In this document: in pieces, positions 1,459-56,705 of the stretch
Numbering within the stretch: the stretch's first letter is position 1
Layout: the number at the start of each line of letters is the position of its first letter
Assembly (NCBI GenBank): GCA_002869615.1
Contig: PKUH01000001.1
Span: 71,937 to 135,936, forward strand
Source: Desulfuromonas sp.
Lineage (GTDB): Bacteria > Desulfobacterota > Desulfuromonadia > Desulfuromonadales > UBA2294
Length of the DNA stretch: 64,000 nucleotides
Reading direction: 5' to 3'
Notes under the pieces: generated by a model
Database searches by the model: none
Told to the model about the DNA's origin: nothing
The model's input: the letters and a program-made list of their open reading frames with translations, nothing else
Position numbers and translations under genes: made by a program

Positions 1459-1620
1459 CATTTAAATAATGACAGAATTTGAATCTTATAATACCCTCAA
1501 TCACTTGCGAATCGTCGATTCTGTGCGATAGTTGCAAACAGGTTCAGAAAAAACCTTTTATCTAATTAAATCAAGCCCTTTATCCACAAAGAATCATCAT
1601 TGCGAACCGGAGAGTTAATT

Positions 1621-4600: not shown

Positions 4601-7600
4601 ACCCCGTATCCCAGATCCTGTCTGCCGTGACAACCCGGAAAGGCATCAGAGGCTTCTCGGTTTCCCTGCACCTCAACCATCTGCAGCGGGCTCTCGCAGA
4701 AATAGCTATGCTGCCCCATCAGGCGTGGGTAACATTTGCCGCGATTTTACAAGCCTGGTACCGCCTTTTCATCTCTCATCGCAAACTCCTCGAATGGACA
4801 ACCGCGTACGCTGCCCAGACAACGGTTCAACGCCGCCGCCGCCTTTTCGCTGCTTCCCTGCTCCTCGCCTCAGCTTCTGCCGTGGCAATCAGTCTGCTCC
4901 TGTCTGAGCAGCAACCGGACAACCTTGTACAGGCCAGCCCATGGCTGCTCCTCTGGTTTTTCTCGCCTTTTTTCGGGTGGCTCCTGACAGCCCGGCCAAT
5001 CGAAAAAAACCAACGCGAGCTTTTACCGGCGAAAGAAATTCTGTTTCTGCGCCGAATCAATCGCCTGACCTGGCGTTTTTTCGCCGACTTTGTTAACGCC
5101 GAGACCTCATGGCTGCCGCCTGACAATTACCAGGTGTCGCATCAGGATCAGCTGGCTCTGCGGACCAGCCCGACCAATATCGGTTTTGCCATGCTCAGCA
5201 CCGTCGCGGCTTGCGACAGCGGATATATCACTCAGGTCGGGACCCTCGATAAACTCGAATCGACCATGCAGTCAATCGAAAAGCTGGAACGCTTCGAAGG
5301 CCATCTGTTGAACTGGTATGACATCGGCAACCTCACGCCGCTGGAACCCCGTTATGTATCGACTGTCGACAGCGGCAACTTCCTCGGTGCGCTCTGGACC
5401 CTGCAACAGGGGCTCAAAGATCAATTCACCGGTGAAATTATCAGTCGTTCAACTTTTGACGGTCTGCATGATACCGGCCGCATTTTGCTGAGGCGGATTC
5501 GTGACGATAATACTCTCAAGCCGATTCGCAGAGACTTGACCGCACTGCTTGAACAACTCGATCGGCCACCACGCAAGACTGTCGACCAGCTGAAACTACT
5601 ACGTCAGTCGGCCGATGCCGGCAAGAATATCACCAATTCAATACTCGAAATCTATCCTGAGCCGTGTGAGGTCAGTTACTGGTGCAAAGCGCTGGTCACT
5701 GAATTCGCAAACTGGTCAGAGATGGCCGATCAGTATCTTTCGTGGATTGAGCTGCTTGGCCAGCAGCAGAGCAAGCTCGCCGAAACCGCGATCAGGAATC
5801 TTTCCGAGATCAACGAAGACCTGAGCCAGGCGCCATCGATAAGAAATCTCGCCCGGGGGGAATCGGCTTCGGGCGCTCTGCTGAACATTATCCGTGAAAA
5901 TGCCCACACCGAATCTCCGTCCCTTGCCAAATGGGCGGGAGAAGTCCTTGATCGTTTTGCTGTCGCCCAACGTCACGCCAGCGCATTCAGACAACGGCAT
6001 GAAGATCTTCTGTCCAGCATCCGTAACCTGGCGGGCGGCATGAACCTCAAGTTTCTCTATCATCCGGAGAGGAAGCTGTTTTCAATCGGCTACAATGTTT
6101 CATCAGGCGAGATGGACAAATCCTATTACGATTTGCTGGCGAGTGAAGCCCGCTTCGGTGGTTTTGTTGCGATCGCCCGCGGCGACATCCCGATGGAACA
6201 CTGGTTCACCATGGGGCGTCCGCACACTCTGGTCGGTCGACACCGCGTTCTGCTCAGTTGGACCGGAACCATGTTTGAGTACCTGATGCCACAAATATTT
6301 CTCCGCTCCTATCGCTACTCCCTGCTCGACAAGGCGATACACAATGCGGTTGACACCCAGATCGAATATGGCAGAAAGAACGGTATCCCCTGGGGCATAT
6401 CCGAATCCGCATTCGGCGACCTAGATTTCAATAAAACTTACCAGTACAAGGCTTTCGGCGTTCCAAAGCTCGGTTTGAAGCGGGTTCTCGAGGACCAACT
6501 CGTTGTTTCACCCTATTCAACCCTGATGGCCGTCGGAATCATGCCGAAGGAAACGGTTCAGAATCTAAGAGACCTTGACCAACTCGGTATGCTCGATAAA
6601 TACGGCTACTTTGAAGCGATAGATTTCCGCCGCAAACCGGAACGGGATGGCCAGAGGGGTGTCAAAATCCAGGCTTATATGGCTCATCACCAGGGGATGG
6701 GATTTCTTGCCCTGACAAACTTCCTGCACAACAATCTCTTCCAGCGCCGCTTTCATGCCGATCCGAGGGCCCGGGCTTTCGAACCGTTGCTGCAGGAGAG
6801 GATTCCGACCTTGCCTCCACTTCAGCTGACGGCAACTCGTGAGCGGACCACTTCTCTGGTCGAAAGCAGTTCGGACATCCCGGCATCCGGAACCTTTGAA
6901 ACTCCGCACACATCAATGCCGAAAACCCAGATCCTCTGCAACGGCCACTACGACCTGATGATTACCCATACCGGTGGCGGATACAGCAAATGGAAAGGAC
7001 AGGAGATCAGCCGCTGGCGCGCTGATCGAACAAACGACTGCTGGGGAGTCTACTGCTATCTTAATGATCTGGCAGAACGAAAAACCTGGTCTGCAACCTA
7101 TCACCCGATTGGCGGAGAGCCAGACTATTACAATGCAGAACTCGCCCTCGACCGGGCAATCTTCCGCCGACTCGAAAATGACGTCCAGCTTGAAACAGAG
7201 GTTCTGGTTGCCCCGGAAGATGACGTCGAGATCCGGCGAATGACGCTGATCAATCGGTCATCCCACGCCAAGCGGCTCAACCTGACCAGTTACATTGAAC
7301 TTTCGATGACACCTCACGCCGCTGACCGGGCGCATCCGGCTTTCAATAAACTTTTCATCCAGACGGAGGCCGTCGAGGAGAAAAGAACCCTTCTTGCCTA
7401 TCGGCGCTACCGGAGCGAAGAGGCTGAGCCGTTCTTTGTCGCGCACCGTTTCGTCAATGACCAGGAACAGAAGCACTGGCGTTTCGAGACCGATCGCAGC
7501 CAATTCATCGGCCGGGGGCAGAATCTGGCAACGGCCCGTGGAGCCAGCAGCAGCCTCGGCAATAATGACGGCTTCGTCCTTGATCCGGTTCTTTGTCTGC

Positions 7601-10600
7601 GCGAAACCGTATCGCTCGAACCGAGCGAACGGGTTTCTGTTGCAATGATCATTGCCGCCGGTGATTCACGACAAAAGGTCCTTGATCTCGCTGAAAAATA
7701 CAACACCATGCAGGCCGTAAACCGGGCGATGGATTTTGCCTGGCGTTCAGCCCAGATTGAGCTTCGCCAGCTCCACATCCTGCCGGACGAGGCCAGACGC
7801 TTTCAACAACTGGCCGATCATCTCATCTTCCCGAACAATCTGTTGCGCGCACCGGCTGAAACACTTGAAGAGAACCGAAAAGGCCAATCCGGACTCTGGC
7901 CCTACGCAATCTCTGGAGATCTGCCAATTCTGCTTGTCTCAATCGACGAAACCCGTGACATCGGCCTGGTTCGCCAACTTCTTCAGGCTCATACCTATTG
8001 GCGTCGCCACGGCTTTCTCGCTGACCTCGTCATCCTTAACGAGGAATCGGAAAGTTATGAGCAACCCTTGCGCGAGCGGCTGGTCCATCTGATTCAGGCC
8101 CACTCAATGTTTGCCGGCCGCGATCAACCAAGCGGCATATACCTGCGCAGCGCTGAACAAATGCCGGATGAGGACCTCAGACTGCTCAAAGCTGCGGCGT
8201 CGGTCTTTCTGGTTGCAGCCCGCGGGTCGCTCTCACAACAGCTGGGGGTGCCACGGCCAACTCCCGTACTGCCACCATTGTTTAAAAAGTCAGGCAACTT
8301 TGACAGCCCGTCACCACCTTTGCCGGACATTGAGCTTCTGCACCACAATGGTTATGGCGGCTTCACTCCCGACGGAAAAGAATATGTGATCGAGCTGAAG
8401 CCGGGTGTCAGTACACCGGCGCCATGGGTTAACGTCATGGCCAATCCCGACTTTGGCGCCCTGGTCAGCGAAACAGGAGCCGGCTTCTCCTGGTATGGCA
8501 ACAGCCAGCGCAACCGGATCAACAGCTGGTCAAACGACCCGGTCATCGACCCTCCGTCGGAAGCAATCTATCTCCGTGATGAAGTAACGGGGGACTTCTG
8601 GACTGCAACCTCGGCACCGATTCGCAATGACTCGCCATATCGCTGTCGACACGGCGCCGGCTATACGATATTTGAACACAATCATGCCGGCACTGAATCC
8701 GAACTGACGATGTTCGTTCCGGTTGACAGCAACAACAGCCCGGTCAGAATTCAGCGATTGAGGCTTAAAAACAAAGCCCGTCGTAAACGAACCATCAGTG
8801 TTACCTGGTATACGGAACTGACGCTCGGCGAGCATCGTGAAGTTTCCCAGATGCATGCGATGACTCATTGGGACAGCGAATCACGGATTCTGCTCGCCCG
8901 CAACTGCTATCACCCCGAATACGGCAATCGCGTAACCTTCTTCGCGATGACGCCAAAACCGGACTCATGGGCGGGTGACCGGACTGCCTTTATCGGCCGC
9001 AATCGTACAATGACAGCTCCACAGGCAATGTTGCTCGAAAATCTCAACAACCACGGCGGTGCCGGCTGCGACCCCTGTGCCGCCCTGCAAACAACGATTG
9101 AGCTTGCCCCGGACGAAACTGAAGAGGTCCTCTGTATCACCGGGCAGGCAGAGTCGGTCGAGCAGGCACGGCTTTTCTCGCGAACCTTCCGTGATCATAG
9201 TATTGTTGAATCGTCGTTGACTGCAACATGCGAATGGTGGGACCGGTTACTCGGCACAATCAGGGTCACAACCCCCGAACCTGCAGCCGACATCCTGATC
9301 AACCGTTGGCTCCTTTATCAATCACTCAGTTGTCGGATCTGGGGCAGGTCGGCTTTTTACCAGTCCGGGGGTGCGTTCGGTTATCGTGATCAGTTGCAGG
9401 ATGTAATGGCTTTTCTGTTCACCCGCCCCGAACTGGCAAGAGAGCAGATATTGCTTGCGGCCAGTCGCCAGTTCCGTGAAGGTGATGTTCAGCACTGGTG
9501 GCACCCGCCGACCGGTGCCGGTATCCGCTCGAGGATTTCCGATGATCTGCTCTGGCTTCCATTCGTCACCAGCCAATATGTCCGTTCAACGGGTGATGCT
9601 GACATTCTCAACATCGACGTTCCATATCTCAGCGCACCATTGCTGGAACCGGGTCAACACGAAGTTTTCAGTGCCCCTGAGATCACATTCGAACAGGGTA
9701 CTATCTTTGAACACTGCCAGCGGGCAGTCCGAAAAGGCCTGACATCCGGCCCGAACGGTCTCCCTCTGATCGGCACCGGCGACTGGAACGACGGGATGAA
9801 CCTGGTCGGAGCCGATGGCCGGGGCGAATCGGTCTGGCTGGGCTGGTTTCTCTTCGAAATACTGGCCGGCATGGCATATCTGGCAGACCGCCTTGGCAAA
9901 CCGGAACTCGAACAGGAATATCGTCAGAAACGGAATGATCTGGTTCAGCAGATCGAGAAAGTTGCCTGGGATGGGGCCTGGTATCAACGCGGCACGTTCG
10001 ATGACGGATCGCCACTCGGTTCGTCGCGGTGCGATGAAGCGAAGATAGATTCGCTCCCGCAATCATGGGCCTGGCTGACCGGAGCCGGCAACCGCGAACG
10101 GGCCGAACAGGCCATAGAATCGGCGTGGGAGCACCTGATCCTGGAGGATGAACGGCTGGTTCTGCTGTTCGAGCCGCCTTTTAATCATTCAGAACAAAAT
10201 CCCGGCTATATCAAAGGCTACCCGCCGGGAGTCAGGGAGAACGGTGGTCAGTACACCCATGCGGCACTCTGGTTTGCCATGGCTCTGGCGCGCAAAGGAG
10301 ATGGCAACCGCGCGGTCAAGCTTCTCAACATGATGAGCCCGATGGAACATACCCGGGACCGCGAGGCAGCTGCCCACTACGGGCTTGAGCCCTACGCGAT
10401 CGCCGCAGACATATACCGACTTCCCGGCCGCGTCGGTCGTGGCGGCTGGTCATGGTATACTGGTTCAGCCGCCTGGACGTACCGCGCCTGGGTTGAAGAG
10501 ATCTTCGGACTCAAACAGATTGAGAATACGCTCCACATCCACCCGGTGATTCCGCAGGAATGGGAGAGCTTCTGTGTTGAGTATCGACATGGTGACGCCC

Positions 10601-10755
10601 ACTATCGAATTGACGTTGAAAACCCCGAGCATGTCATGAGCGGCATCGCAAGTGTCGAACTTGATGGGAGGTATCTGGAGAACAAGGTTATCCCGTTAAC
10701 AAAGGAACCCGGCAACTACCATGTCCGCGTCCGGCTGGGAGGAGACAAACCCTGA
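1621..10755 (+). CDS. ndvB: giant cyclic beta-1,2-glucan synthase-like protein (NdvB/ChvB/Cgs family: membrane GT domain plus C-terminal GH94 glycosyl-phosphorylase-like domain)
   Basis: A single ORF runs 1600-10755. I prefer the GTG at 1621 because GGAGAG (1609-1614) lies 6 nt upstream. The glycosyltransferase region has DSDTQLP and RWIRGDWQ motifs and multiple TM segments. The C-terminal third (RIWGRSAFYQSGGAFGYRDQLQD...GDWNDGMN...ENGGQYTHAA) resembles cellobiose/chitobiose-phosphorylase (GH94) catalytic domains. Confidence 0.8.
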   Translation: MPTGILISFFQNRSDARKCLWALNKKGFRRAAVLHRSSGGNIDILDCFKWTRIIGLLALTLGSGLVALFTDIGKLDLRLFGEDLPLHTLIVSGSIIGITLGLAWLKRSRFGIATRIIDQYVHSLMPDEAALILQAPVDAMKSPMAIIRDKSETLPTIFILHPGREHRGASRDLAGPLSDDEVSRRARFQGIEHQLQNKDSGKSELLHRLKKEGQWFQEICTDLTEACRLEQGASPVAEWIIDNEFLVAKAVRDILVNLPKSYYRELPVLTSHKHWTGFPCVYELAKEMVFDNESRLNRENIISFISSYQTLKKLSIAELWAVPQMLRIALIESILDLAIRVHNDMRERQLAAFWANRFIAANRRDSSQIFSILAELDDRHPEPSLYFGSQLISLLYDQAATLAPVESWLERKLGKSANDINFSEQNRQAHDQLLIEAAFTSIRQLVQIDWRDIFEELSWVEKIMTTDPAGIYPAMDFQTRDKYRQVIKHYAQRSGRTEDDVARTAIELARSTESHVGTLLFGPGKARLDAKLDCRENRSKRFRAFLRANHCAVYLGGLGAIFLGIYLFMFNIALTNESIAARFGFAILLTIPVSQLALEILNYFLTRLVRPRPLSKMDFEKTGIPDEFRTLVVVPTLLTSDGAIREEIEKLEIRFMANRDTNLRFGLFTDYTDSTLEHNEEDEALLQLAQKSINGLNRRYDTDTFFLFHRERTWSNTEQKFIGWERKRGKLEELNQLLDGSSPDSANKLVYAGNPEQLDGIRFIITLDSDTQLPHGTARRMIETLAHPLNQPQIDESGQIKRGTYTILQPRVTPSLQSTSKSPFSQIYADAVGVDPYTRVVSDVYQDLSGEGSYHGKGIYDVRAFSRILSNNFPDELVLSHDLIEGAHVRTALVSDIELFDDFPQDYLGFITRLRRWIRGDWQIFPWIFPWVPKKGGGFRKNPISIFNRWKVLDNLRRSLLPTFNLALLIAAWLTSQQAAMAVMMMIGLQIFFNPVSQILSAVTTRKGIRGFSVSLHLNHLQRALAEIAMLPHQAWVTFAAILQAWYRLFISHRKLLEWTTAYAAQTTVQRRRRLFAASLLLASASAVAISLLLSEQQPDNLVQASPWLLLWFFSPFFGWLLTARPIEKNQRELLPAKEILFLRRINRLTWRFFADFVNAETSWLPPDNYQVSHQDQLALRTSPTNIGFAMLSTVAACDSGYITQVGTLDKLESTMQSIEKLERFEGHLLNWYDIGNLTPLEPRYVSTVDSGNFLGALWTLQQGLKDQFTGEIISRSTFDGLHDTGRILLRRIRDDNTLKPIRRDLTALLEQLDRPPRKTVDQLKLLRQSADAGKNITNSILEIYPEPCEVSYWCKALVTEFANWSEMADQYLSWIELLGQQQSKLAETAIRNLSEINEDLSQAPSIRNLARGESASGALLNIIRENAHTESPSLAKWAGEVLDRFAVAQRHASAFRQRHEDLLSSIRNLAGGMNLKFLYHPERKLFSIGYNVSSGEMDKSYYDLLASEARFGGFVAIARGDIPMEHWFTMGRPHTLVGRHRVLLSWTGTMFEYLMPQIFLRSYRYSLLDKAIHNAVDTQIEYGRKNGIPWGISESAFGDLDFNKTYQYKAFGVPKLGLKRVLEDQLVVSPYSTLMAVGIMPKETVQNLRDLDQLGMLDKYGYFEAIDFRRKPERDGQRGVKIQAYMAHHQGMGFLALTNFLHNNLFQRRFHADPRARAFEPLLQERIPTLPPLQLTATRERTTSLVESSSDIPASGTFETPHTSMPKTQILCNGHYDLMITHTGGGYSKWKGQEISRWRADRTNDCWGVYCYLNDLAERKTWSATYHPIGGEPDYYNAELALDRAIFRRLENDVQLETEVLVAPEDDVEIRRMTLINRSSHAKRLNLTSYIELSMTPHAADRAHPAFNKLFIQTEAVEEKRTLLAYRRYRSEEAEPFFVAHRFVNDQEQKHWRFETDRSQFIGRGQNLATARGASSSLGNNDGFVLDPVLCLRETVSLEPSERVSVAMIIAAGDSRQKVLDLAEKYNTMQAVNRAMDFAWRSAQIELRQLHILPDEARRFQQLADHLIFPNNLLRAPAETLEENRKGQSGLWPYAISGDLPILLVSIDETRDIGLVRQLLQAHTYWRRHGFLADLVILNEESESYEQPLRERLVHLIQAHSMFAGRDQPSGIYLRSAEQMPDEDLRLLKAAASVFLVAARGSLSQQLGVPRPTPVLPPLFKKSGNFDSPSPPLPDIELLHHNGYGGFTPDGKEYVIELKPGVSTPAPWVNVMANPDFGALVSETGAGFSWYGNSQRNRINSWSNDPVIDPPSEAIYLRDEVTGDFWTATSAPIRNDSPYRCRHGAGYTIFEHNHAGTESELTMFVPVDSNNSPVRIQRLRLKNKARRKRTISVTWYTELTLGEHREVSQMHAMTHWDSESRILLARNCYHPEYGNRVTFFAMTPKPDSWAGDRTAFIGRNRTMTAPQAMLLENLNNHGGAGCDPCAALQTTIELAPDETEEVLCITGQAESVEQARLFSRTFRDHSIVESSLTATCEWWDRLLGTIRVTTPEPAADILINRWLLYQSLSCRIWGRSAFYQSGGAFGYRDQLQDVMAFLFTRPELAREQILLAASRQFREGDVQHWWHPPTGAGIRSRISDDLLWLPFVTSQYVRSTGDADILNIDVPYLSAPLLEPGQHEVFSAPEITFEQGTIFEHCQRAVRKGLTSGPNGLPLIGTGDWNDGMNLVGADGRGESVWLGWFLFEILAGMAYLADRLGKPELEQEYRQKRNDLVQQIEKVAWDGAWYQRGTFDDGSPLGSSRCDEAKIDSLPQSWAWLTGAGNRERAEQAIESAWEHLILEDERLVLLFEPPFNHSEQNPGYIKGYPPGVRENGGQYTHAALWFAMALARKGDGNRAVKLLNMMSPMEHTRDREAAAHYGLEPYAIAADIYRLPGRVGRGGWSWYTGSAAWTYRAWVEEIFGLKQIENTLHIHPVIPQEWESFCVEYRHGDAHYRIDVENPEHVMSGIASVELDGRYLENKVIPLTKEPGNYHVRVRLGGDKP

Positions 10756-10790
10756 AGAAGAAAACCGGAAAAAAAAGCCAAGTGCCGAAC

Positions 10791-11978
10791 ATGAGCAGAA
10801 CCAGGGCTATCTATGATCGCCAGTTGCCCAACCTGGAAGGGGCGTTGCATTCGCTTTACCAGGAGATCAGGCGCCTTCTTGAACGACACGATTTCACCCC
10901 GACGATCAAGTACCGGGTCAAGCGCTTTGATGCCTATTTCGACAAGTTGAGAAAAAATCGTCTGCGCGGCACCGGTCGCGGCAATCGATCACTCGGGGAT
11001 TTTTTCGCCCTGCGCATCATTTGCCCGTTTCTCGAAGACATCGAAACAGTCGAGCGGATTCTCATCGCCAATTATGACGTGATTGAAACTGAGCGGAAAT
11101 CGACTCAACACTCATTTCGTGAATTCGGTTATGACTCGGTTCATTTGATGATCAAACCGAAACAGCAGATGATCAAGGCTAAACTGCCCGGAGTACGCAA
11201 CGTCTGCGAAGTCCAGCTCCGGACCATCCTGCAGGATGCCTGGGCTGAAGTCGAGCATGAGCTGGTTTACAAATCGGACATCTCCCTGCCAAAGGAATCG
11301 ATCCGGCGCAAGCTGGCCTCACTGAATGCTACGCTGAATCTGTCCGATCTGATCTTTCAGGAGATCCGGGATTACCAGAATGAAATCCGTCAGCATGGAC
11401 GTATGCGCCGGAGTTCGGTCCTTGAAGAGACGTTGAATCTCGATCTGATCAATATTGATCCGCCATTACAGAACGGACCCAAGCCGATCGCGTCGACCCT
11501 TAAAAGCCGCCTTGAAAAGACCATGTTGCGCGCCCTTGAAGCCCACAGCAGTAACGACTTCGATACGGCGATCGAGCTTTATGGAGCTATTCTCGGTATG
11601 CGGATCGAGACACCGATCAGGGCTCTGGTCTACAACCATCGCGGCATGGCCTTTTTTGCCCAGGGCAATCATTCGCGGGCGTTACGCGATTTCAACCAGG
11701 CGATCCGGTATGACCCGACGAGTTCACGAAGTTTATGCAATCGCGGGTTGTGCAACCGGATACTTAAACGTTATGACAAGGCACTGGAGGATTTTGAAAC
11801 GGCCCTCGAAATCGATCCGGTCAACGCCGATTGTTATTTCGGCCGCGCCCAGACCTACCTTGATACAGGGCAACCGGAACTGGCCAAAAACGACTGCCGT
11901 AAAGTGCTGGAGATCAACCCGGAGCATCAGGCGGCCCACGACCTGCTCAACCGAGCCGAACCCCCTGATTTATCATAA
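10791..11978 (+). CDS. RelA/SpoT-domain (small alarmone synthetase-like) protein fused to C-terminal TPR repeats
   Basis: The N-terminal half has RVKRFDAYFDKLRKN, FALRIICPF, FGYDSVHLMI and EVQLRTILQDAWAEVEHELVYK, which are nucleotidyl/pyrophosphokinase motifs of the RelA_SpoT fold. The C-terminal roughly 150 aa holds about four TPR units (AIELYGAIL...ALRDFNQAIRYDP...ALEDFETALEIDP...AKNDCRKVLEINP). The start is ATG 10791, or alternatively GTG 10782. Confidence 0.8.
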   Translation: MSRTRAIYDRQLPNLEGALHSLYQEIRRLLERHDFTPTIKYRVKRFDAYFDKLRKNRLRGTGRGNRSLGDFFALRIICPFLEDIETVERILIANYDVIETERKSTQHSFREFGYDSVHLMIKPKQQMIKAKLPGVRNVCEVQLRTILQDAWAEVEHELVYKSDISLPKESIRRKLASLNATLNLSDLIFQEIRDYQNEIRQHGRMRRSSVLEETLNLDLINIDPPLQNGPKPIASTLKSRLEKTMLRALEAHSSNDFDTAIELYGAILGMRIETPIRALVYNHRGMAFFAQGNHSRALRDFNQAIRYDPTSSRSLCNRGLCNRILKRYDKALEDFETALEIDPVNADCYFGRAQTYLDTGQPELAKNDCRKVLEINPEHQAAHDLLNRAEPPDLS

Positions 11979-11980
11979 CA

Positions 11981-12007
11981 AAAAAGGGGCAGAGTTTCCT
12001 CTGCCCC
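11981..12007 (-). terminator. terminator hairpin between convergent genes (good T-run on the minus strand)
   Basis: GGGGCAGAG (11986-11994), loop TTTC, then CTCTGCCCC (11999-12007). The AAAAA at 11981-11985 gives a U-run for the minus-strand transcript of the 7-TM gene. Confidence 0.65.
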
Positions 12008-12030
12008 CAATTAACGCCTTTCCAAACCGA

Positions 12031-12729
12031 TCAGCGCAGAAGCTTTGCCAGGTACAGGAAGGTGCCGCCAACCGAGAGTCCGGCCAGAACGTTGCCAATC
12101 TCCTTGCAGTAGATCGACAGGGTGTAACGGCCGAGATACTCGCCCTGGGCTGCGAGGGCATCCAGACTGTAGACATTGATATAAAGTTCCGAGCCCTTCC
12201 ACAGGAAGATGAAAGCGAAGACAAAGATAAAAGCAGCAAATCCCTTACTGATCGGGCTGTCCTGGATATTGACATATATCTTGCGAATAAGGTCGATATT
12301 GATCAGCGAGAGAAAGACCCAGTTTGTATTCTCAACGATGTTAATAACTTCAAGAGTCCGCTCATTCGGAGTAATATTGATCCAGATAAAAACCGCCGAA
12401 GCGACGATAACTCCGATCGTGGCCAGATAAACAAAGGCTTTGTTTCCTTCCAGTTCGAGCGTGCGCGAAAAAACATAATACTCCTGAAAGCCGTGACTCA
12501 TGATCAGGATTGCCATGGTCCCGACAATCGATGTCATTGCCTGAATTTCGGGGATTTCCAGGCCGGGGAGGAAGTCAATCGCGGTCGGCAGAATCTCGGC
12601 GACCAGTATCAGGAAAAAGCCGACAGCAATACTGGTCCAGACCCGGGCATTCCCGAGACTGAAATAGAACGAGACGATACCTGCCAGAACCCAGAGAGGG
12701 AGAGTGATAATTGTCCAATCCATACCCAT
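12031..12729 (-). CDS. hypothetical polytopic membrane protein (about 7 predicted TM helices)
   Basis: A 232-aa ORF with about seven hydrophobic stretches. A strong SD (GGAGGT) lies 6 nt before the ATG at 12729. I recognised no family motif. Confidence 0.7.
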   Translation of the reverse strand: MGMDWTIITLPLWVLAGIVSFYFSLGNARVWTSIAVGFFLILVAEILPTAIDFLPGLEIPEIQAMTSIVGTMAILIMSHGFQEYYVFSRTLELEGNKAFVYLATIGVIVASAVFIWINITPNERTLEVINIVENTNWVFLSLINIDLIRKIYVNIQDSPISKGFAAFIFVFAFIFLWKGSELYINVYSLDALAAQGEYLGRYTLSIYCKEIGNVLAGLSVGGTFLYLAKLLR

Positions 12730-12775
12730 AACATTACCTCCAACCTGTTAAGATCAATAAAAACAAAGCCCCCTC

Positions 12776-13726
12776 CTACGAAATGGAGCGGGCAATTTTC
12801 TGCATATCTTCAATCATCGATTTAATAGCCGAAGGACCGGCAACCATTTTGGCAGCCCGGGAAAGATCGTCAAGCAGTTGACTGAACATGGCATCAGTCC
12901 ATTCGCCATTTTCAGGAATGTGCTTTTCCATCTCCTTGTCGACCAGTTGGATACCGATCTTGCCAATATGCTTCTCGGCGGCACTGCGCAGCATCGATTG
13001 TAAACGGATGCGACGATTTTTCTGTTCCATTTCCTTGTCGCGATTCTGTTCCTGTTGCTGGTTTTTCTTGTTCTTGGCAATCATTTCGTGAGCTTTTTTC
13101 CAGAGCGCCGACAGGTCAGCCGATGCCATCAGGTCAGCCAGGTCAATCTCATCAGCGCCGCCGGAGCTCAGAACATCGACTTTGGCTCCCGGCAATTTGG
13201 CCACCGACATCGAATCGTCGGCCTTGGTCTCGATATCGGTCGAGCCGTCATGGAAAAAGCCGAGCGGATTACCATCCTTGTAGAAAATCAGAGCGATCTT
13301 TTCGTCGTTGTAGATCCGCAGGCAGCCGCTCATCTTGTCTTGCTTGAGCTTGCCGAGCAGCGCCTTGATATCAATCAACTTAAGCTCCTGACCTTTATAC
13401 AGGATGTTTCCGTGCAACAGGGCATGGATACTCATGGCGAGTTCTGTCGACAGCTTGTAGATATCGAGAATCAACAATCCGGAGAGGGAGAGTTCAAAAA
13501 TGCGGGCGATCGCGTCGTAAGCAATCAGACGATCGTTGGTCTCCTCGTACAGTGCACTGATCAATTTACCGGAGCTGAAGATAATAACCCCGGTGCCGGC
13601 GGCAGCCTCAAACCGGAGATAACCGGTAAAGCCACTCTTCTGCAGTTTGCCGAGAGCGTCAGGCATATTGATTTTTCCGGGGTTGACTTTTTCCCGGACA
13701 GGATTTCCGCGGGGCAAGAGAATCAT
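12776..13726 (-). CDS. hypothetical cytoplasmic protein with two tandem DUF4388/PATAN-like repeats, a charged K/Q/E linker and a small C-terminal helical domain
   Basis: There are two internally similar segments: LQKSGFTGYLRFEAAAGTGVIIFSSGKLISALYEE and LKQDKMSGCLRIYNDEKIALIFYKDGNPLGFFHDG. Both fit the tG-L-v...g-i-f-G-v-A pattern I associate with DUF4388. The family assignment is from memory only. Confidence 0.6.
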   Translation of the reverse strand: MILLPRGNPVREKVNPGKINMPDALGKLQKSGFTGYLRFEAAAGTGVIIFSSGKLISALYEETNDRLIAYDAIARIFELSLSGLLILDIYKLSTELAMSIHALLHGNILYKGQELKLIDIKALLGKLKQDKMSGCLRIYNDEKIALIFYKDGNPLGFFHDGSTDIETKADDSMSVAKLPGAKVDVLSSGGADEIDLADLMASADLSALWKKAHEMIAKNKKNQQQEQNRDKEMEQKNRRIRLQSMLRSAAEKHIGKIGIQLVDKEMEKHIPENGEWTDAMFSQLLDDLSRAAKMVAGPSAIKSMIEDMQKIARSIS

Positions 13727-40220: not shown

Positions 40221-40235
40221 TGGCACAGGCATTGC
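40221..40235 (+). promoter_or_regulatory. sigma54 (RpoN) -24/-12 promoter
   Basis: TGGCAC (40221-40226), 5 nt (aggca), then TTGC (40232-35) is an exact match to TGGCAC-N5-TTGC. The predicted start is near 40247. Confidence 0.7.
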
Positions 40236-40246
40236 TTCTAATGAAA

Positions 40247-40339
40247 GGTATGTTCGGGGATTTTACGCATCCTGATCAATCGGAAAGCATCCCCTTTTAC
40301 GCCGCCACGGGTACTCTCTCCCCCGGGCGGCGTTTTTTT
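40247..40339 (+). ncRNA. candidate sigma54-dependent small RNA or terminator-controlled leader upstream of ptsP
   Basis: It runs from the predicted TSS to an intrinsic terminator. Hairpin 1 pairs GGGGAT (40256-61) with ATCCCC (40289-94), with inner GC and UCC/GGA pairs. A U-rich linker follows, then the terminator hairpin. There is no SD or credible ORF downstream of the TSS. Confidence 0.45.
40300..40339 (+). terminator. rho-independent terminator
   Basis: CGCCGCC(A)CGGG pairs with CCCGGGCGGCG to give an 11-bp GC-rich stem with one bulge. The loop is 10 nt, followed by TTTTTTT (40333-40339). Confidence 0.75.
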
Positions 40340-40438
40340 ATTCGACTCACAATGCCTATTTCGACTATTATGCTAACTTAATGTCATGATATATTTTTAA
40401 AGTTCAATTCTATCTGTTTTTTTCCTCGGGGGAATCCA

Positions 40439-42793
40439 ATGGTTGCCAAACAATCAAATAAAGGATTCGGTGTCGCGACACTGGAGGATATCTCCGCTCT
40501 GATTCTGCAATCGCACGACCTCGACGAAACCCTGCGCAATATTGCCAACCTCGTCGCCAAACGGATGCGGACCGATGTCTGCTCGATCTATCTGCTCGAC
40601 ACGGATGACGAAACGCTGCGACTCCGGGCGACCAAAGGCCTCTCCAAGCGCGCTATCGGCAAAGTCACGATGAAAATCGGCGAAGGCCTTACCGGGATGG
40701 CCGCCCAGGAGCGCCGATCGATTGCTATCCAGGACCCTGAGAATCATCCCAAGTACCGCTACTTTAAAGAAACCGGAGAAGAAAAGTTCCATTCTTTTCT
40801 CGGCATACCGCTGTTCGACCGCAAAGCTCCACTTGGCGTTATCGTACTCCAGACCAAGGTGACACGCCAGTTCAGTGATGAAGAAATCAGCACCCTGACC
40901 ACGATCGCTTTTCAGGTGACATCGATTGTTATCAATGCGCGGCTTCTCGACCGCATCCAGCAAAAGGAACACGAAGCGACCCGGGTCACCCGCGAGCTTG
41001 CACAGGCCAAAAGAAGTCTCACTGAAGATAAAGATGATCAAGATGAAGATGTTCCGTTCAGTACCGTAATTCGCGGCAATGTCGCATACCCCGGTGTCGC
41101 GATGGGCCAGGCCAACATCCTGGAAGAACGTCTCGGTTTTTCCGATATTCTTGATGAAGAAGCTGTTGATGAGACAGAAGAGCTTGAACGTCTCGATGAC
41201 GCCCTCGAAAAAACACGTATCCAGACCATTTTCCTCGAAAAACGGGTAGCGGAAAGGCTCTCCGAAAGTGACGCCTCGATTTTCCACACCCACCAGATGA
41301 TTCTCGAGGACCGCTCCTTCATCAAAAAATTACAGGATCAAATCAAGAATGGTCATGGCGCACCTTATGCTCTCGAAAAGGTTGTCAGTGATTATATTGC
41401 AGCCTTTGAAAAAATGGAGGATTCATATCTTCGTGAACGGGCCGCTGACATGGAAGACATCGGTCGCCGCCTGCTGGCTAACCTGATCGGTGAAGAGAAC
41501 CACATGCTTCACCTCAAACATTCCGGCATCCTGGTCGCTCGGCAAATCCTTCCATCTGATATGGCCGCTCTTGATCATGAACAGATTACCGGGATTGTCA
41601 CCGAAGCGGGAGAGAAAAACTCGCATGCGGTGATCATGGCCAAATCGCTCGGCATACCGGCACTGGTCGGAGTTAAAAAAATTCTGAGCCGCATCGCTCC
41701 CGATGATGATTTGATTCTTGATGCCAATTCCGGAACCCTCTATGTAAATCCGAATGAGGCAATTGTTGAAGAATATACCCGTCTTGAAGAAGATCAGAAC
41801 CGTGAGCGGAGCCGACTCGATGCATTCCGCGACAAGCCGGCGGTCACGGCCGACGGAGAAAAAATTACCTTGCGCGCAAACATCGGACTGGTCAGCGATG
41901 TTCCGGTTGCTCTTCGCAACGGCGCCGAGGGCGTCGGTCTTTACCGGACTGAATTCCCCTATATGACCCGGGCCGATTTCCCGGATCGGCAGGATCAGTA
42001 CATGCTTTATCGAAAAGTCATCGAAGGTTTTAACGACAAACCGGTCACCATCCGGACTCTCGATATCGGTGGCGACAAAGCGCTCCCCTACTTCTCGCCA
42101 CCGGATGAAGACAACCCGTTCATGGGATGGCGCTCGGTCCGCGTTTCTCTTGACAACAGGGATATTTTCCAGACCCAGATCGAAGCAATCCTGATGGCCG
42201 GCATGCACGGTCCGGTCAAATTGCTCTTTCCGATGATTTCAAGCATGGATGAATTGATGGCCTGCAAGGAGGTTGTAGCCGAAGCGAGGGAAAACCTGCT
42301 GGCGGAAGGAGTCCTTTTTACCGATGAAGTCCCGCTTGGAATCATGATCTAGGTGCCGGCGGCTGTCCGTCTGGTCAAGCGCTTTGCCAATGAAGTCGAC
42401 TTCTTTGCCCTCGGCACCAATGACCTGATTCAGTACCTGCTTGCCGCCGATCGCAACAATCCCCTGGTCAGCAAATATTACGATCCGCTCCATCCTGCAG
42501 TCCTGCAGGTTTTGAATGAAGTCAAAACGACCGCTGCCAATCTCGGCAAGGGCGTTTGCGTTTGCGGTGAGCTGTCATCAGATCCGATCAACCTGATTCC
42601 ACTTATCGGCATGGGTATCCGTGAGTTCTCGATGCCGGCACCATTCATCCCCCGCACCAAGGCCTTTCTTGAAAAATTACCGGCGGATGTGGCCCGCAGG
42701 GCGGCCTGGGAGATCCTTGACATGGGAACCAGCAAAGAGATCCGGGAACATCTGGAGTCCGTACTCGAAGAGCTGAACAGCGAACCGGCCTGA
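40439..42793 (+). pseudogene. ptsP: phosphoenolpyruvate-protein phosphotransferase PtsP (EI-Ntr: GAF plus PEP-utilising domains) interrupted by an in-frame TAG at 42350-42352
   Basis: ORFs 40439-42352 and 42353-42793 are in the same frame, separated only by TAG. Together they read ...[37 protein letters not shown]... The N-terminus has a GAF domain. The phospho-His region is GEKNSHAVIMAKSLGIPA. The catalytic-Cys region VCGELSSD lies downstream of the stop. Confidence 0.8.
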
Positions 42794-43523: not shown

Positions 43524-44258
43524 CTATTCCGATTCATTCCTTACGACCAGAACATATCCATAGTCCTGACCGTCTTCCGTCTTCAGGGGCGATGCTGTCA
43601 GACTGAGGTATTGTCTTTCACCGGCTGGCGATACACCTTCCAGTCGATAAATCTCTCCCTCGAAGCGGGCCTTGATCATATCACTGAACTTGACCAGAGT
43701 GGAGTAGGCACCATCCGAGTCAAGACTATCGAGACGCTTGCCGACGATCGACTCATCACAACCAAAAATCTCCTTGGCCGCTTCATTCAACTCAGCGACC
43801 TGGAGCTCCTTGTCTGTAATAAAAATACCTTCACGGGCACACCGGAACAAGGCTTCCAGACGCATACGGAAGGTTTCGTTCTCTTCTATCAGTTGTTTAT
43901 GATCAAGCGCCATCCGGGTAACCCGCAGCAGGTTCTCCTGCATAACAGGTTTCGGAATGTAATCGAAAGCACCGTAACGAACAGCTTCGGCAGCCGTTTC
44001 GACCTCCGGCGCACCGGTAATCATGACAACCGGCGAAGTAATGCCGCGTTCCTTGATTTCGCGCAAGATTTCAAGACCGCTGTCACGACCGAGAAGAATA
44101 TCAAGAAAAACGAGATCAAACTCCTCATCGGCCAAAAGTTTTTTGCCGTCCTGAAGATTACTTGCTGTCTTAACGGCATAACCCTCGTCCTTGAGAAAAC
44201 TTTCAAAAGTAAAACGGATATTTTCTTCATCATCTACAATCAGAATCCTCGATGCCAT
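43524..44258 (-). CDS. response regulator: receiver domain plus C-terminal PAS domain
   Basis: The REC motifs are ILIVDDEE, DLVFLDILL and YIPKPV. The C-terminal half is PAS-like (REGIFITDKELQVAELNEAAKEIFG...). Confidence 0.8.
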   Translation of the reverse strand: MASRILIVDDEENIRFTFESFLKDEGYAVKTASNLQDGKKLLADEEFDLVFLDILLGRDSGLEILREIKERGITSPVVMITGAPEVETAAEAVRYGAFDYIPKPVMQENLLRVTRMALDHKQLIEENETFRMRLEALFRCAREGIFITDKELQVAELNEAAKEIFGCDESIVGKRLDSLDSDGAYSTLVKFSDMIKARFEGEIYRLEGVSPAGERQYLSLTASPLKTEDGQDYGYVLVVRNESE

Positions 44259-53886: not shown

Positions 53887-55048
53887 AGGTCAAGTCAGAG
53901 GTGTAGTAAAATGCTGAACCGTTCCCGAGGCCAAGATCAACCGTAACCGTAAATTCCGGAAGCTTCATCACCGCGGTCGCCGCAGCCTCCTGTTCGGCCG
54001 AGCCGGCAAGCCCATTTTCCGCCACCATGACTCCATCAAAGCTGATGCTGACCTTGTCCGGATCGACTTCTGCTCCGGAATATCCGACGGCCGCGATAAT
54101 CCGCCCCCAGTTTGCATCTTCACCGAAAAAGGCTGTTTTCACCAGGTTCGAGGTGGCAATTGCCGTTGCTGCCTGCAGGCCGTCGTTATCATCGGCGGCG
54201 CCGGTGACTTCGATCTTAACCAGCTTGGTTGCTCCTTCACCGTCACTGACTATCATCTTGGCCAGATCGAGAAGTACCTCCTGCAACAGGCGGACAAAAA
54301 TCTCAAAGTCATCGCCTTCACTGTCAATAACTGCGCCGGTTGCACCGTTAGCGAGCAACAGAACCATATCGTTGGTCGAGGTGTCGCGATCGACGGTAAT
54401 CCGATTGAATGTTTGATCAACCGCCTGCCGCAGCGCCTTGTCAAGAAGTGCCGAGGAGATCCCGACATCGGTCATGACAAAGCCGAGCATGGTCGCCATA
54501 TTCGGGTGAATCATCCCGGCCCCTTTGGCCAGACCGAGGATCGCATAGCCGGTGTCAGCGACCGCTCCGAAAGCGGCCGAGACCTTGCTAAAAGAATCTG
54601 TCGTCATCATCGCTTCGGCGACATCGCCGGCGGCATCGGGCGAAAGGTTATCCCTCAGCTCCGGCAATGCCGTCACGATTTTACCAACATCAAGCCGCTG
54701 ACCGATTACCCCGGTTGAGGCGATGGCGATCAGATCATTATCAAGATCGAGGACTTCGGCAAGCGCTGAGCTGCAGGCGTTGGCGTCAGCAAGTCCCGCC
54801 TGTCCGGTGCAGGCATTGGCATTTTTGCTGTTGACCAGAATCGCCTGGCACTGTCCGGCGCGGACCCGGGGGGCCGAGACCTGGAGCGGTGCCGCCACAA
54901 CCCGGTTGGCGGTAAATACGCCGGCACATTGGGCCGGCCTTTCCGAAACAATCAGACCGAGATCAAGCGCCTGGTTCTTTTTCAATCCGGACGCCATAGC
55001 GGCGAACCGGAACCCCTTTACAGTTGGATCGTCAGTGCGACTCATCAT
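53849..55048 (-). CDS. argJ: bifunctional glutamate N-acetyltransferase / amino-acid acetyltransferase
   Basis: KGFRFAAMASGLKK is present. The autoproteolytic site region is HPNMATMLGFVMTD. The protein is 399 aa. Confidence 0.9.
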   Translation of the reverse strand: MMSRTDDPTVKGFRFAAMASGLKKNQALDLGLIVSERPAQCAGVFTANRVVAAPLQVSAPRVRAGQCQAILVNSKNANACTGQAGLADANACSSALAEVLDLDNDLIAIASTGVIGQRLDVGKIVTALPELRDNLSPDAAGDVAEAMMTTDSFSKVSAAFGAVADTGYAILGLAKGAGMIHPNMATMLGFVMTDVGISSALLDKALRQAVDQTFNRITVDRDTSTNDMVLLLANGATGAVIDSEGDDFEIFVRLLQEVLLDLAKMIVSDGEGATKLVKIEVTGAADDNDGLQAATAIATSNLVKTAFFGEDANWGRIIAAVGYSGAEVDPDKVSISFDGVMVAENGLAGSAEQEAAATAVMKLPEFTVTVDLGLGNGSAFYYTSDLTYDYVKINADYRT

Positions 55049-56705
55049 CCTTGTCCTTTATCGGCAACAGCATCGCGAACGTGGTGCCGGCGCCAGCAGT
55101 ATCTTCAAGAAAAATAGTGCCACCCATCTTCTCAACAATCGTCCGGCAGAGGGCCAGTCCGATGCCGACCCCCTCCGGCTTGTCCGTGTTGATCTCGCCG
55201 AGCTGGCTGTATTGGGCGAAAACCTCTTCGGCAGCTTCGATCGGAACGTGAGTTCCGTCGTTGTGAATCCTGATATATATCTGGTCGGGATGCTCACTGC
55301 CTCCTGCTGCGGCTAAAAGAGACAGTGACCCGCCCCGTTCATTGAATTTGACAGCATTATCAATCAAGGCACCAATCAGCAGACCGAATTTTTCCCGATC
55401 GCCAAAGACGGCCGGAAGATCATCTGCCAGGTCGAGCTGAAGATCGAGCTCCAGCGCCTCAATCCGCTCGCGATAGGGCGCAATCTCCTGAAGACAGATC
55501 TCGCCCACCGCCAACGGATGCGAATCCCATTGCGCGGTTCCCGAGTCGATCGAGAAAAGCAGCAACATGCCGCTGATCAATCGTTCCATCTGAATACTTG
55601 AGTCGGTAATCTTGCCGAGATAATCATCAAGCTCCGCCTCACTGATCTCGGCACGGTGCAACTGCAGCAAGTCGGAAAAACCAAGCACCGAGGTTAACGG
55701 CGTTTTCAACTCGTGCGACAGGTTGCAGACCAGTTTTGACCGGGCCTTATTCAGGGCCTCGAGCTCACGCGCCTTGTTACGCAACTGGTTAATCAGGTTG
55801 AAGTTTTCGATCGCCATTGTCGCCTGGTGAGCAATTGAAGCGAACAGGTTCTGATCGTGCGCCGAAAACGAGGTGCCATCGGTTTTGTTGTTAACGTTGA
55901 GGACACCGATAGTCTGATCGCGCCCCCTGAGCGGCAGTGACAACGCCGAAGCGGTTGAATACTGTCCTTCGTCACCGGAAGGTGAAAACCGTCCATCCTC
56001 GACAATATCGTTGATCAATACCGGCTCACCAGTCGCGAAAACGTGCCCCGAGACTCCCTCGCCAGGAGTGATGACGGCGCTGTCCTGAACCCCCTTCGGC
56101 AGTCCGTGCGCCGCCCGGATCCGGAGGTTTCCGTCCCGGTCCGGAAGCATCAGCGAAGCGACTTTGACATCAACGGAATCGACAATCAGGTTGATAATCC
56201 GATCAAGCAGGGACTGCAGATCGACTTCACCGCTGGCTGTCTTGCCGACTTCACGCAACAGGACCAGATCGGTCAGAAGTCGATCAGCTTCTTCACGATT
56301 TTTTTTCGCCTCGAGATTTGACCGGTACTGAGAAAAAGCCCGTTCGACAACGGTCAGAAGTTCGGCATTGGAAAAAGGTTTGACCAGATACTCAAGAGCA
56401 CCGCCACTGAGGACAGCACGAACGGCACTAAAATCCTGATGCCCGGAAATCACCACAACCGGAACTTCCGGGCACAGTTCCTTGACCATTTTCAGCACCT
56501 CAAGGCCGGAGACATCGGACATCTCGAGGTCGGTCAGTACCAGGCCGATCCGATGCTGGTTGATCAGTCGTGAAACCTCGGAGCCATTATCTGTTTCGAC
56601 CACTGAATAACCATCAGCAGACAGGCTATCAATAATAACCTGGCGGAAGAAGGCCTCGTCATCAACGATCAGGACTCTTGGGGATTTTTCGGTTTCAGCT
56701 GTCAT
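55032..56705 (-). CDS. hybrid sensor histidine kinase: N-terminal receiver, GAF, HisKA and HATPase_c
   Basis: The REC motifs are VLIVDDE, LVLTDLEM and LVKPF. The GAF region reads ...VSGHVFATGEPVLINDI... The H-box is LSHELKTPLTSV. The G-box is GVGIGLALCRTIVEKMGG. Confidence 0.85.
   Translation of the reverse strand: MTAETEKSPRVLIVDDEAFFRQVIIDSLSADGYSVVETDNGSEVSRLINQHRIGLVLTDLEMSDVSGLEVLKMVKELCPEVPVVVISGHQDFSAVRAVLSGGALEYLVKPFSNAELLTVVERAFSQYRSNLEAKKNREEADRLLTDLVLLREVGKTASGEVDLQSLLDRIINLIVDSVDVKVASLMLPDRDGNLRIRAAHGLPKGVQDSAVITPGEGVSGHVFATGEPVLINDIVEDGRFSPSGDEGQYSTASALSLPLRGRDQTIGVLNVNNKTDGTSFSAHDQNLFASIAHQATMAIENFNLINQLRNKARELEALNKARSKLVCNLSHELKTPLTSVLGFSDLLQLHRAEISEAELDDYLGKITDSSIQMERLISGMLLLFSIDSGTAQWDSHPLAVGEICLQEIAPYRERIEALELDLQLDLADDLPAVFGDREKFGLLIGALIDNAVKFNERGGSLSLLAAAGGSEHPDQIYIRIHNDGTHVPIEAAEEVFAQYSQLGEINTDKPEGVGIGLALCRTIVEKMGGTIFLEDTAGAGTTFAMLLPIKDKDDESH

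What the first reader, a model, noticed from the sequence alone, without database searches (positions are those of the whole stretch)
42341..42361. ptsP is split by a single in-frame amber codon at a conserved glutamate position
The two ORFs 40439-42352 and 42353-42793 share one frame. Together they give a normal-length EI-Ntr (GAF plus PEP-utilising domains, about 784 codons). The only defect is TAG at 42350-42352 in ...PLGIMI[TAG]VPAAV... This aligns with the G-x-M-x-E-x-P motif of enzyme I proteins (E. coli PtsI ...GVMVETPAA..., as I recall), so a single GAG-to-TAG change explains it. The catalytic-Cys segment (VCGELSSD) lies downstream of the stop, so a truncated product should be inactive. 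Downstream codons show no decay. That suggests a very recent nonsense mutation, a strain-specific or laboratory-acquired lesion, a sequencing error, or amber read-through or suppression.
Basis: seen in the sequence. Interest (0 to 1): 0.6.

Follow-up and report, generated by a model that had tools for sequence, protein, structure and literature searches.

The report
Strain-specific amber mutation inactivating ptsP
One base change (GAG to TAG) puts a stop codon at the magnesium-binding glutamate of the regulatory enzyme PtsP in this Desulfuromonas-like strain; near-identical strains have the intact gene, so this is an ordinary recent gene-killing mutation (or, less likely, a base-call error), not unusual decoding.

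Summary
TAG at 42350-42352 lies in frame inside a 784-codon ptsP (EI-Ntr: GAF, EI N-terminal, mobile His and PEP-binding domains). It splits the PEP-binding domain between Pfam profile positions 181 and 184. It aligns with E. coli Enzyme I Glu431, a Mg2+ ligand. Asp455 and Cys502 equivalents lie downstream.

Three public metagenome assemblies are 99.8-99.95% identical to the window over about 35.7 kb, with no indels. All three carry G at 42350 (GAG) and encode the same intact 784-aa protein. All other ptsP differences are synonymous. All 79 more distant Desulfuromonadales relatives have Glu (GAA or GAG).

TAG is an ordinary stop for 7 other genes in the window. No tRNA, Rfam element or unusual RNA structure is nearby, so recoding is not supported.

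Best reading: a very recent, strain-specific G-to-T nonsense mutation that makes ptsP a pseudogene. It is probably tolerable because this clade's PTS is a signalling chain with a second Enzyme I. A base-call or consensus error cannot be excluded without reads. Low interest; an already known kind of event.

Side finding: a conserved candidate sigma-54-dependent small RNA of about 93 nt just upstream of ptsP (40221-40340), found in at least 60 of 80 related loci and with no Rfam match.

The parts
40439..42349 (+). ptsP, 5' part (codons 1-637): GAF domain, EI N-terminal domain, mobile His domain and the first ~60% of the PEP-binding TIM-barrel domain
   Evidence: Pfam hits: GAF 27-160, PEP-utilisers_N 212-334, PEP-utilizers 361-432, PEP-utilizers_C 459-637 (profile 3-181). 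Amino-acid sequence identical to P0001.
42350..42352 (+). In-frame amber codon TAG replacing GAG (Glu638, equivalent to E. coli EI Glu431, a Mg2+ ligand). The derived base is T at 42350.
   Evidence: G at this site in L081/L091 (JGI), L092 (ENA) and L082/L093 (Logan). Glu in 79 of 79 relatives. Aligned to E431. Glu431 and Asp455 coordinate Mg2+ (PMC7836100).
42353..42793 (+). ptsP, 3' part (codons 639-784 plus TGA stop). Encodes the rest of the TIM barrel, including the Asp455 (GTND) and Cys502 (VCGEL) equivalents. Untranslated if termination occurs at the TAG.
   Evidence: PEP-utilizers_C profile 184-290. Alignment to 2hwg. Only 3 synonymous differences from the intact allele.

Best explanation
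On the lineage of this particular strain, a single G-to-T transversion at 42350 converted the GAG codon for the Mg2+-binding glutamate of EI-Ntr (PtsP) into an amber stop. Translation terminates there. The product is a 637-residue protein with GAF, EIN and His domains but only about 55-60% of the PEP-binding TIM barrel. It lacks the Glu431, Asp455 and Cys502 equivalents, so it cannot autophosphorylate from PEP. ptsP is therefore a very young pseudogene, or loss-of-function allele. No other lesion has accumulated. Shown: the base change, that it is derived and unique to this strain, the invariance of the residue, and the normal use of TAG as a stop. Inferred: that the truncated protein is inactive, from E. 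coli EI structure and function. Also inferred: that the loss is tolerated because the PTS in this clade is a non-essential signalling chain with a second Enzyme I (PtsI). Whether the mutation arose in nature or in culture cannot be told from sequence.
For: TAG is in frame and splits one Pfam domain. Three assemblies at 99.79-99.95% identity with 0 indels over 17066-52793 all have G, giving GAG, and encode the identical intact 784-aa P0001. 79 of 79 more distant relatives have GAA or GAG. 73 of 75 complete relatives have uninterrupted ORFs of 767-797 codons. The site aligns to E. coli EI Glu431 with Asp455 and Cys502 downstream, and Glu431 and Asp455 are Mg2+ ligands (PMC7836100). The other six ptsP differences are all synonymous. 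Outgroup polarisation of neighbouring missense differences is mixed, so the window is a true sister strain rather than the same sequence plus errors. The TAG lies in a local cluster of 4 window-specific SNPs within 255 bp (P about 0.03), like other SNP clusters in the region, which fits real haplotype variation. The absence of indels argues for a well-polished assembly. TAG terminates 7 other genes in the window. ptsP is convergent with the next gene, so no polar effects are expected. ptsP loss-of-function alleles are recurrently selected in other bacteria (PMC9579162). Geobacteraceae-type PTS is a vestigial signalling system with both PtsI and PtsP (PMC3543383).
Against: No reads are available, so a consensus or base-call error at one position cannot be excluded. 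No second genome or contig carries the T allele. Window-specific differences are relatively rich in missense changes (15 nonsynonymous to 13 synonymous, against 4 to 19 among the assemblies; Fisher P = 0.01), which could partly reflect errors in the window. The inactivity of the truncated product is inferred, not measured.
Confidence: 0.8

Rival explanations
1. Sequencing, consensus or assembly error. The real genome has G at 42350 and an ordinary intact ptsP. If the source is a metagenome bin, the T could instead be a minority variant captured in the consensus.
For: The T allele is seen only in the window. All three near-identical assemblies and all relatives have G. The gene is otherwise perfect. 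Window-specific differences show an elevated nonsynonymous fraction.
Against: There are zero indels against three assemblies over 35.7 kb, which indicates a polished assembly where substitution errors are rare. Neighbouring window-specific differences are real variation with mixed polarity. The TAG sits within a SNP cluster typical of this strain comparison. There is no enrichment of differences near GATC or any other shared context that would suggest systematic miscalls (P = 0.41). Internal-stop pseudogenes are common in real bacterial genomes (general knowledge).
Confidence: 0.14
2. The amber codon is decoded, either by a suppressor tRNA encoded elsewhere in the genome or by appreciable near-cognate read-through, so that some full-length EI-Ntr is made.
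For: The downstream 146 codons are undecayed, with only synonymous differences. The rest of the genome could not be searched for a CUA-anticodon tRNA.
Against: Lack of decay is equally expected for a very recent mutation, and the polarity of the three synonymous changes is ambiguous. TAG is a normal terminator for 7 of 46 other genes in the window, with gene ends matching the calls in near-identical contigs. There is no tRNA in the window, no Rfam element, and the downstream RNA is not unusually structured (z = -0.42). The stop is not conserved in any relative. Function would need Glu specifically at a Mg2+-ligand position, whereas typical near-cognate insertions at UAG are Gln, Tyr, Lys or Trp (general knowledge).
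Confidence: 0.03
3. Split-gene arrangement. Translation terminates at TAG and re-initiates at the adjacent GTG (42353), and the two polypeptides reassemble into an active enzyme.
For: GTG immediately follows the TAG, so the second ORF formally has a start codon.
Against: The GTG is simply the conserved Val codon of the ...E-V-P-A... motif. There is no Shine-Dalgarno-like sequence in the preceding 15 nt. The essential Glu would still be missing. No relative has this arrangement.
Confidence: 0.01
4. Genetic-code change or pyrrolysine: TAG is a sense codon in this organism.
For: None beyond the in-frame TAG itself.
Against: Across 47 ORFs, stop use is 27 TGA, 12 TAA and 8 TAG. ptsP is the only gene with a credible in-frame TAG. 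No pyl-like genes or tRNA were found in the window. The position is invariant Glu in 79 relatives.
Confidence: 0.005

Closest known systems
EI-Ntr / PtsP (phosphoenolpyruvate-protein phosphotransferase with N-terminal GAF domain; NCBIfam PRK11061; E. coli PtsP)
   Same: Same domain order (GAF, EIN, mobile His domain, PEP-binding TIM barrel) and same length class. It scores above the equivalog cut-off when the stop is masked. It aligns end to end with E. coli Enzyme I structures, including the SH motif, GTND and CGEL.
   Different: The reading frame is interrupted at the Mg2+-ligand Glu. As encoded, it cannot produce the catalytic C-terminal third of the PEP-binding domain.
Internal-stop pseudogenes in bacterial genomes (as flagged by annotation pipelines)
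   Same: A single nonsense substitution relative to an intact allele in a >99.7% identical strain, with no other lesion.
   Different: Nothing material. This is a textbook young example.
ptsP loss-of-function alleles selected during experimental evolution or infection (P. aeruginosa, A. baumannii under tobramycin)
   Same: The same gene is knocked out by small mutations. ptsP loss is viable and can be advantageous (PMC9579162).
   Different: Those cases are mostly frameshift indels, in Gammaproteobacteria, under a defined selection. Here the organism is a Desulfuromonadales strain and any selective context is unknown.
Amber suppression, pyrrolysine or TAG reassignment
   Same: An in-frame UAG in an otherwise intact gene.
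   Different: There is no conservation of the UAG, no decoding machinery in the window, TAG is used as a normal stop, and the position requires Glu.

Membership tests
EI-Ntr (PtsP) | N-terminal GAF sensor domain | tested here: met
   GAF, GAF_2 and GAF_3 at residues 25-163, E about 1e-19.
EI-Ntr (PtsP) | EI N-terminal (HPr/NPr-binding) domain plus mobile phospho-His domain | tested here: met
   PEP-utilisers_N 212-334 and PEP-utilizers 361-432. The ...KNSHAVIMAKSLGIPA... segment aligns with the E. coli ...RTSHTSIMARSLELPA... His189 segment.
EI-Ntr (PtsP) | Whole-protein score above the curated equivalog cut-off | tested here: met
   PRK11061 scores 593.4 bits against a cut-off of 583, with X at the stop.
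EI-Ntr (PtsP) | Complete PEP-binding TIM barrel with Mg2+ ligands (Glu431, Asp455) and Cys502, translated as one polypeptide | tested here: not met
   The Glu431 codon is TAG. The Asp455 and Cys502 equivalents are encoded only after the stop. It is therefore a ptsP pseudogene, not a functional member.
Nonsense-mutation pseudogene | An intact orthologous allele in a very close relative, differing by a single base at the stop | tested here: met
   L091, L092 and L093 have GAG. P0001 (784 aa) is identical elsewhere.
Nonsense-mutation pseudogene | The mutation is real in the organism's DNA, not an assembly artefact | not testable with these tools
   No reads are available. Indirect support only: 0 indels, real neighbouring variation and no systematic error context.
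Stop-codon reassignment (TAG as sense) | TAG is avoided as a terminator and occurs in frame in many genes | tested here: not met
   8 of 47 ORFs end in TAG, and only ptsP has a credible internal TAG.
Pyrrolysine decoding | pylT/pylS genes present, and the UAG conserved at the site in orthologues | tested here: not met
   No tRNA in the window, and no pyl-like Pfam hits among the window proteins scanned. Orthologues have Glu, never TAG.
Programmed stop-codon read-through | Conserved stop with a downstream stimulatory RNA structure or context | tested here: not met
   The stop is absent from all relatives. The downstream 100 nt fold with z = -0.42. No Rfam hit.

The most novel reading that the evidence does not exclude
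The amber codon is functionally decoded in this strain, for example by a Glu-inserting or other amber-suppressor tRNA elsewhere in the genome. Full-length EI-Ntr would then still be made at a reduced level, which amounts to natural suppressor-dependent expression of a nitrogen-PTS regulator.
Probability: 0.03. Interest if true: 0.5.

Novelty: already known. Interest (0 to 1): 0.12.

Why it matters
The finding matters mainly for annotation and strain biology. ptsP in this genome should be flagged as a pseudogene with an internal stop, not as two genes. If the mutation is real, this strain lacks EI-Ntr input into its PTS-type signalling chain. That could alter nitrogen/carbon, potassium or stress regulation relative to wild relatives, and anyone using the strain physiologically should know it. 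It gives no evidence for unusual decoding. The conserved sigma-54-dependent small-RNA candidate next to ptsP is the more interesting lead from this locus.

Tried and rejected
(1) Exact-product look-ups for the 637-aa and 146-aa pieces found nothing. Several intact window proteins are also absent, so the window's own genome is apparently not in the collection and this absence is uninformative.

(2) A metagenome scan with N at the variable base returned 6 contigs, all with G. They are distant homologues (68% nt identity or less, or not alignable), so they add nothing at strain level.

(3) I tried to use the three synonymous differences downstream of the TAG as a test for continued selection. Outgroup polarisation is ambiguous, so there is no power.

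(4) I tested the idea that the T is a methylation-motif (GATC-adjacent) basecalling artefact. Variable sites are not enriched near GATC (P = 0.41).

(5) Recoding checks gave nothing: tRNA scan, Rfam at gathering and permissive thresholds, and an RNA fold downstream of the stop.

(6) A literature search for the sample and run identifiers (3300007102, SRR5894289, ERZ794999) gave no hits, so the origin of the near-identical population is unknown.

(7) The genome-contig scan did not return the source genome. The best hit was 81% amino-acid identity, so the organism can be placed only as Desulfuromonadales (Desulfuromonas-like).

Full report
OBSERVATION. The window reads ...GGA ATC ATG ATC TAG GTG CCG..., with TAG at 42350-42352. 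ORFs 40439-42352 (637 aa) and 42353-42793 (146 aa) share a frame and abut. Translating 40439-42793 gives one 784-position protein with a single internal stop in ...[11 protein letters not shown].... Pfam finds GAF, PEP-utilisers_N, the mobile PEP-utilizers domain and PEP-utilizers_C. The last domain is cut between profile positions 181 and 184. With the stop masked, the protein passes the NCBIfam PtsP equivalog cut-off (593 bits against 583).

WHAT THE CODON REPLACES. A phmmer alignment to E. coli Enzyme I (2hwg) places the stop opposite Glu431 in ...IGVMVETPAA.... Asp455 (GTND) and Cys502 (CGEL) align to residues encoded after the stop. Glu431 and Asp455 coordinate the catalytic Mg2+ (PMC7836100). 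Among 80 Desulfuromonadales loci encoding relatives at 59-86% identity, all 79 that span the site have Glu (45 GAA, 34 GAG). Of 75 complete ORFs, 73 are uninterrupted at 767-797 codons. One MAG (L036) has an unrelated frameshift and one (L005) a stop-loss extension.

NEAR-IDENTICAL STRAINS. The source genome is not in the searchable collections: the best genome hit is 81% identical, and exact look-ups of the two pieces and of several intact window proteins fail. The identical DUF2238 neighbour led to three assemblies: JGI 3300007102 Ga0102541_1062418, ENA ERZ794999 NODE_63 and Logan SRR5894289. They align to window 17066-52793 at 99.79-99.95% identity with no indels. All three have G at 42350 (GAG) and encode the same intact 784-aa protein, P0001. 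P0001 is the sole member of its 90% cluster, and the next relative is 83% identical. Within ptsP the other six differences are synonymous, three of them downstream of the stop. The change is therefore GAG to TAG, derived, and so far unique to the window.

REAL VARIATION OR ERROR? There are 56 variable sites over 35.7 kb. Of these, 29 are window-specific: 14 missense, 13 synonymous, 1 nonsense and 1 intergenic. The other 27 are polymorphic among the assemblies: 4 missense, 19 synonymous and 4 intergenic. The nonsynonymous-to-synonymous contrast gives Fisher P = 0.01. Outgroup polarisation shows the window holds the ancestral residue at some sites (PHP I179 and Y172, ValRS D716) and the derived one at others (PHP H165). 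So it is a true sister strain, not the same sequence plus noise. SNPs are strongly clustered, with 14 neighbouring gaps of 30 bp or less against 2.5 expected. The TAG belongs to a cluster of four window-specific SNPs within 255 bp (P about 0.03). There is no enrichment near GATC (P = 0.41). With zero indels, this favours a real mutation in a well-polished assembly, but a single-base error cannot be excluded without reads.

RECODING? Among 47 non-overlapping ORFs of at least 100 codons, stops are 27 TGA, 12 TAA and 8 TAG. Several TAG-terminated genes (RNase E/G, RR-PAS, SIMPL) have the same lengths as the genes called in the near-identical contigs. There is no tRNA or tmRNA and no Rfam hit at gathering threshold. 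The 100 nt after the stop fold no better than shuffles (z = -0.42). The GTG after the TAG is simply the conserved Val codon, and no Shine-Dalgarno sequence precedes it. Polarisation of the downstream synonymous changes is ambiguous, so they give no evidence of continued selection. Reassignment, pyrrolysine, programmed read-through and a split gene are all unsupported.

MECHANISM AND CONSEQUENCE. Termination at codon 638 would give GAF, EIN and His domains plus a TIM barrel lacking its last ~146 residues and all three key catalytic residues. From E. coli EI structure-function knowledge this product cannot autophosphorylate from PEP. This step is inferred. ptsP is followed by a convergent gene (DUF2238, minus strand), so no polarity is expected. 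In Geobacteraceae and relatives the PTS is a vestigial signalling chain with two Enzyme I paralogues, PtsI and PtsP (PMC3543383). ptsP loss-of-function is viable and recurrently selected in other bacteria (PMC9579162). Loss is therefore plausible in nature or in culture.

VERDICT. This is a young, strain-specific nonsense allele of ptsP (confidence about 0.8). Sequencing or consensus error is about 0.14, functional suppression about 0.03, and other readings about 0.01 or less. It is an already known kind of event and of low interest.

SIDE FINDING. The 457-nt spacer upstream of ptsP holds the window's only strict sigma-54 element, TGGCACaggcaTTGCT at 40221-40236 (0.06 expected). About 93 nt of sequence follows, folding into a 5' hairpin and a GC-rich terminator with a U7 tail (z = -2.75). 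In 46 of 76 relatives a strict -24/-12 element lies 182-417 nt upstream of ptsP on the same strand. In all of them a strong hairpin plus T-run follows at a fixed 108-130 nt, while the distance to ptsP varies. The alignment shows an almost invariant CCUCUCUCCCCC terminator loop, and 6 of 10 stem pairs carry compensatory changes. A covariance model finds exactly one copy, on the ptsP strand, in the window and in 60 of 80 loci. There is no Rfam family and no description in the searched literature. This looks like an undescribed RpoN-dependent small RNA linked to the nitrogen-PTS gene.

Noticed in passing
window 40221-40340 (+); also L001-L080 upstream of ptsP: Candidate sigma-54-dependent small RNA. 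A perfect TGGCAC-N5-TTGCT promoter at 40221-40236 is the only one in 64 kb. It is followed by a ~93-nt transcript (about 40247-40339) with a 5' hairpin and a terminator whose C/U-rich loop CCUCUCUCCCCC is nearly invariant. A covariance model finds one copy on the ptsP strand in 60 of 80 Desulfuromonadales loci, and the terminator stem shows compensatory changes. There is no Rfam match and no literature hit. The loop could pair with purine-rich Shine-Dalgarno regions; ptsP's own RBS is GGGGGA. Targets were not analysed.
   Followed up: partly
window 17066-52793 against L089-L093: Differences from three near-identical metagenome assemblies are strongly clustered in tight pairs or triplets, for example 44584/44586, 45218/45220, 46025/46027, 36249/36252 and 37363/37383/37404. 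There are 14 gaps of 30 bp or less against 2.5 expected. Density peaks at 37-47 kb (3.4 per kb against 0.5 per kb at 17-30 kb). Window-specific differences are richer in missense changes than those polymorphic among the assemblies (Fisher P = 0.01). This suggests short recombination tracts or multi-nucleotide mutation events.
   Followed up: partly
window 1600-10755 (+): A 3051-aa ORF with glucoamylase-like and GH94 supersandwich and catalytic domains. This is a cyclic beta-1,2-glucan synthase (NdvB/Cgs)-like giant protein.
   Followed up: no
window 10782-11978 (+) and 11455-12825 (+): A RelA_SpoT (small alarmone synthetase) domain fused to TPR repeats. The next ORF (456 aa from a TTG start, no Pfam hit) overlaps it by 524 nt in another frame, so its true start is probably much further downstream.
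   Followed up: no
L036 7763-7903; L005 5939-6642: Two relatives have their own ptsP anomalies. L036, a MAG, has a frameshift near residue 591 that leads to a TGA. L005 has an ORF extended to 1012 codons, apparently through stop loss. Both could be assembly errors.
   Followed up: no
window 55032-56705 (-) and 43524-44258 (-): Several signalling genes surround ptsP: a response-regulator-GAF-histidine-kinase hybrid, an RR-PAS protein, two CheW genes, an RR, and PilZ and HD-domain proteins. This is an ordinary but signalling-rich neighbourhood.
   Followed up: no
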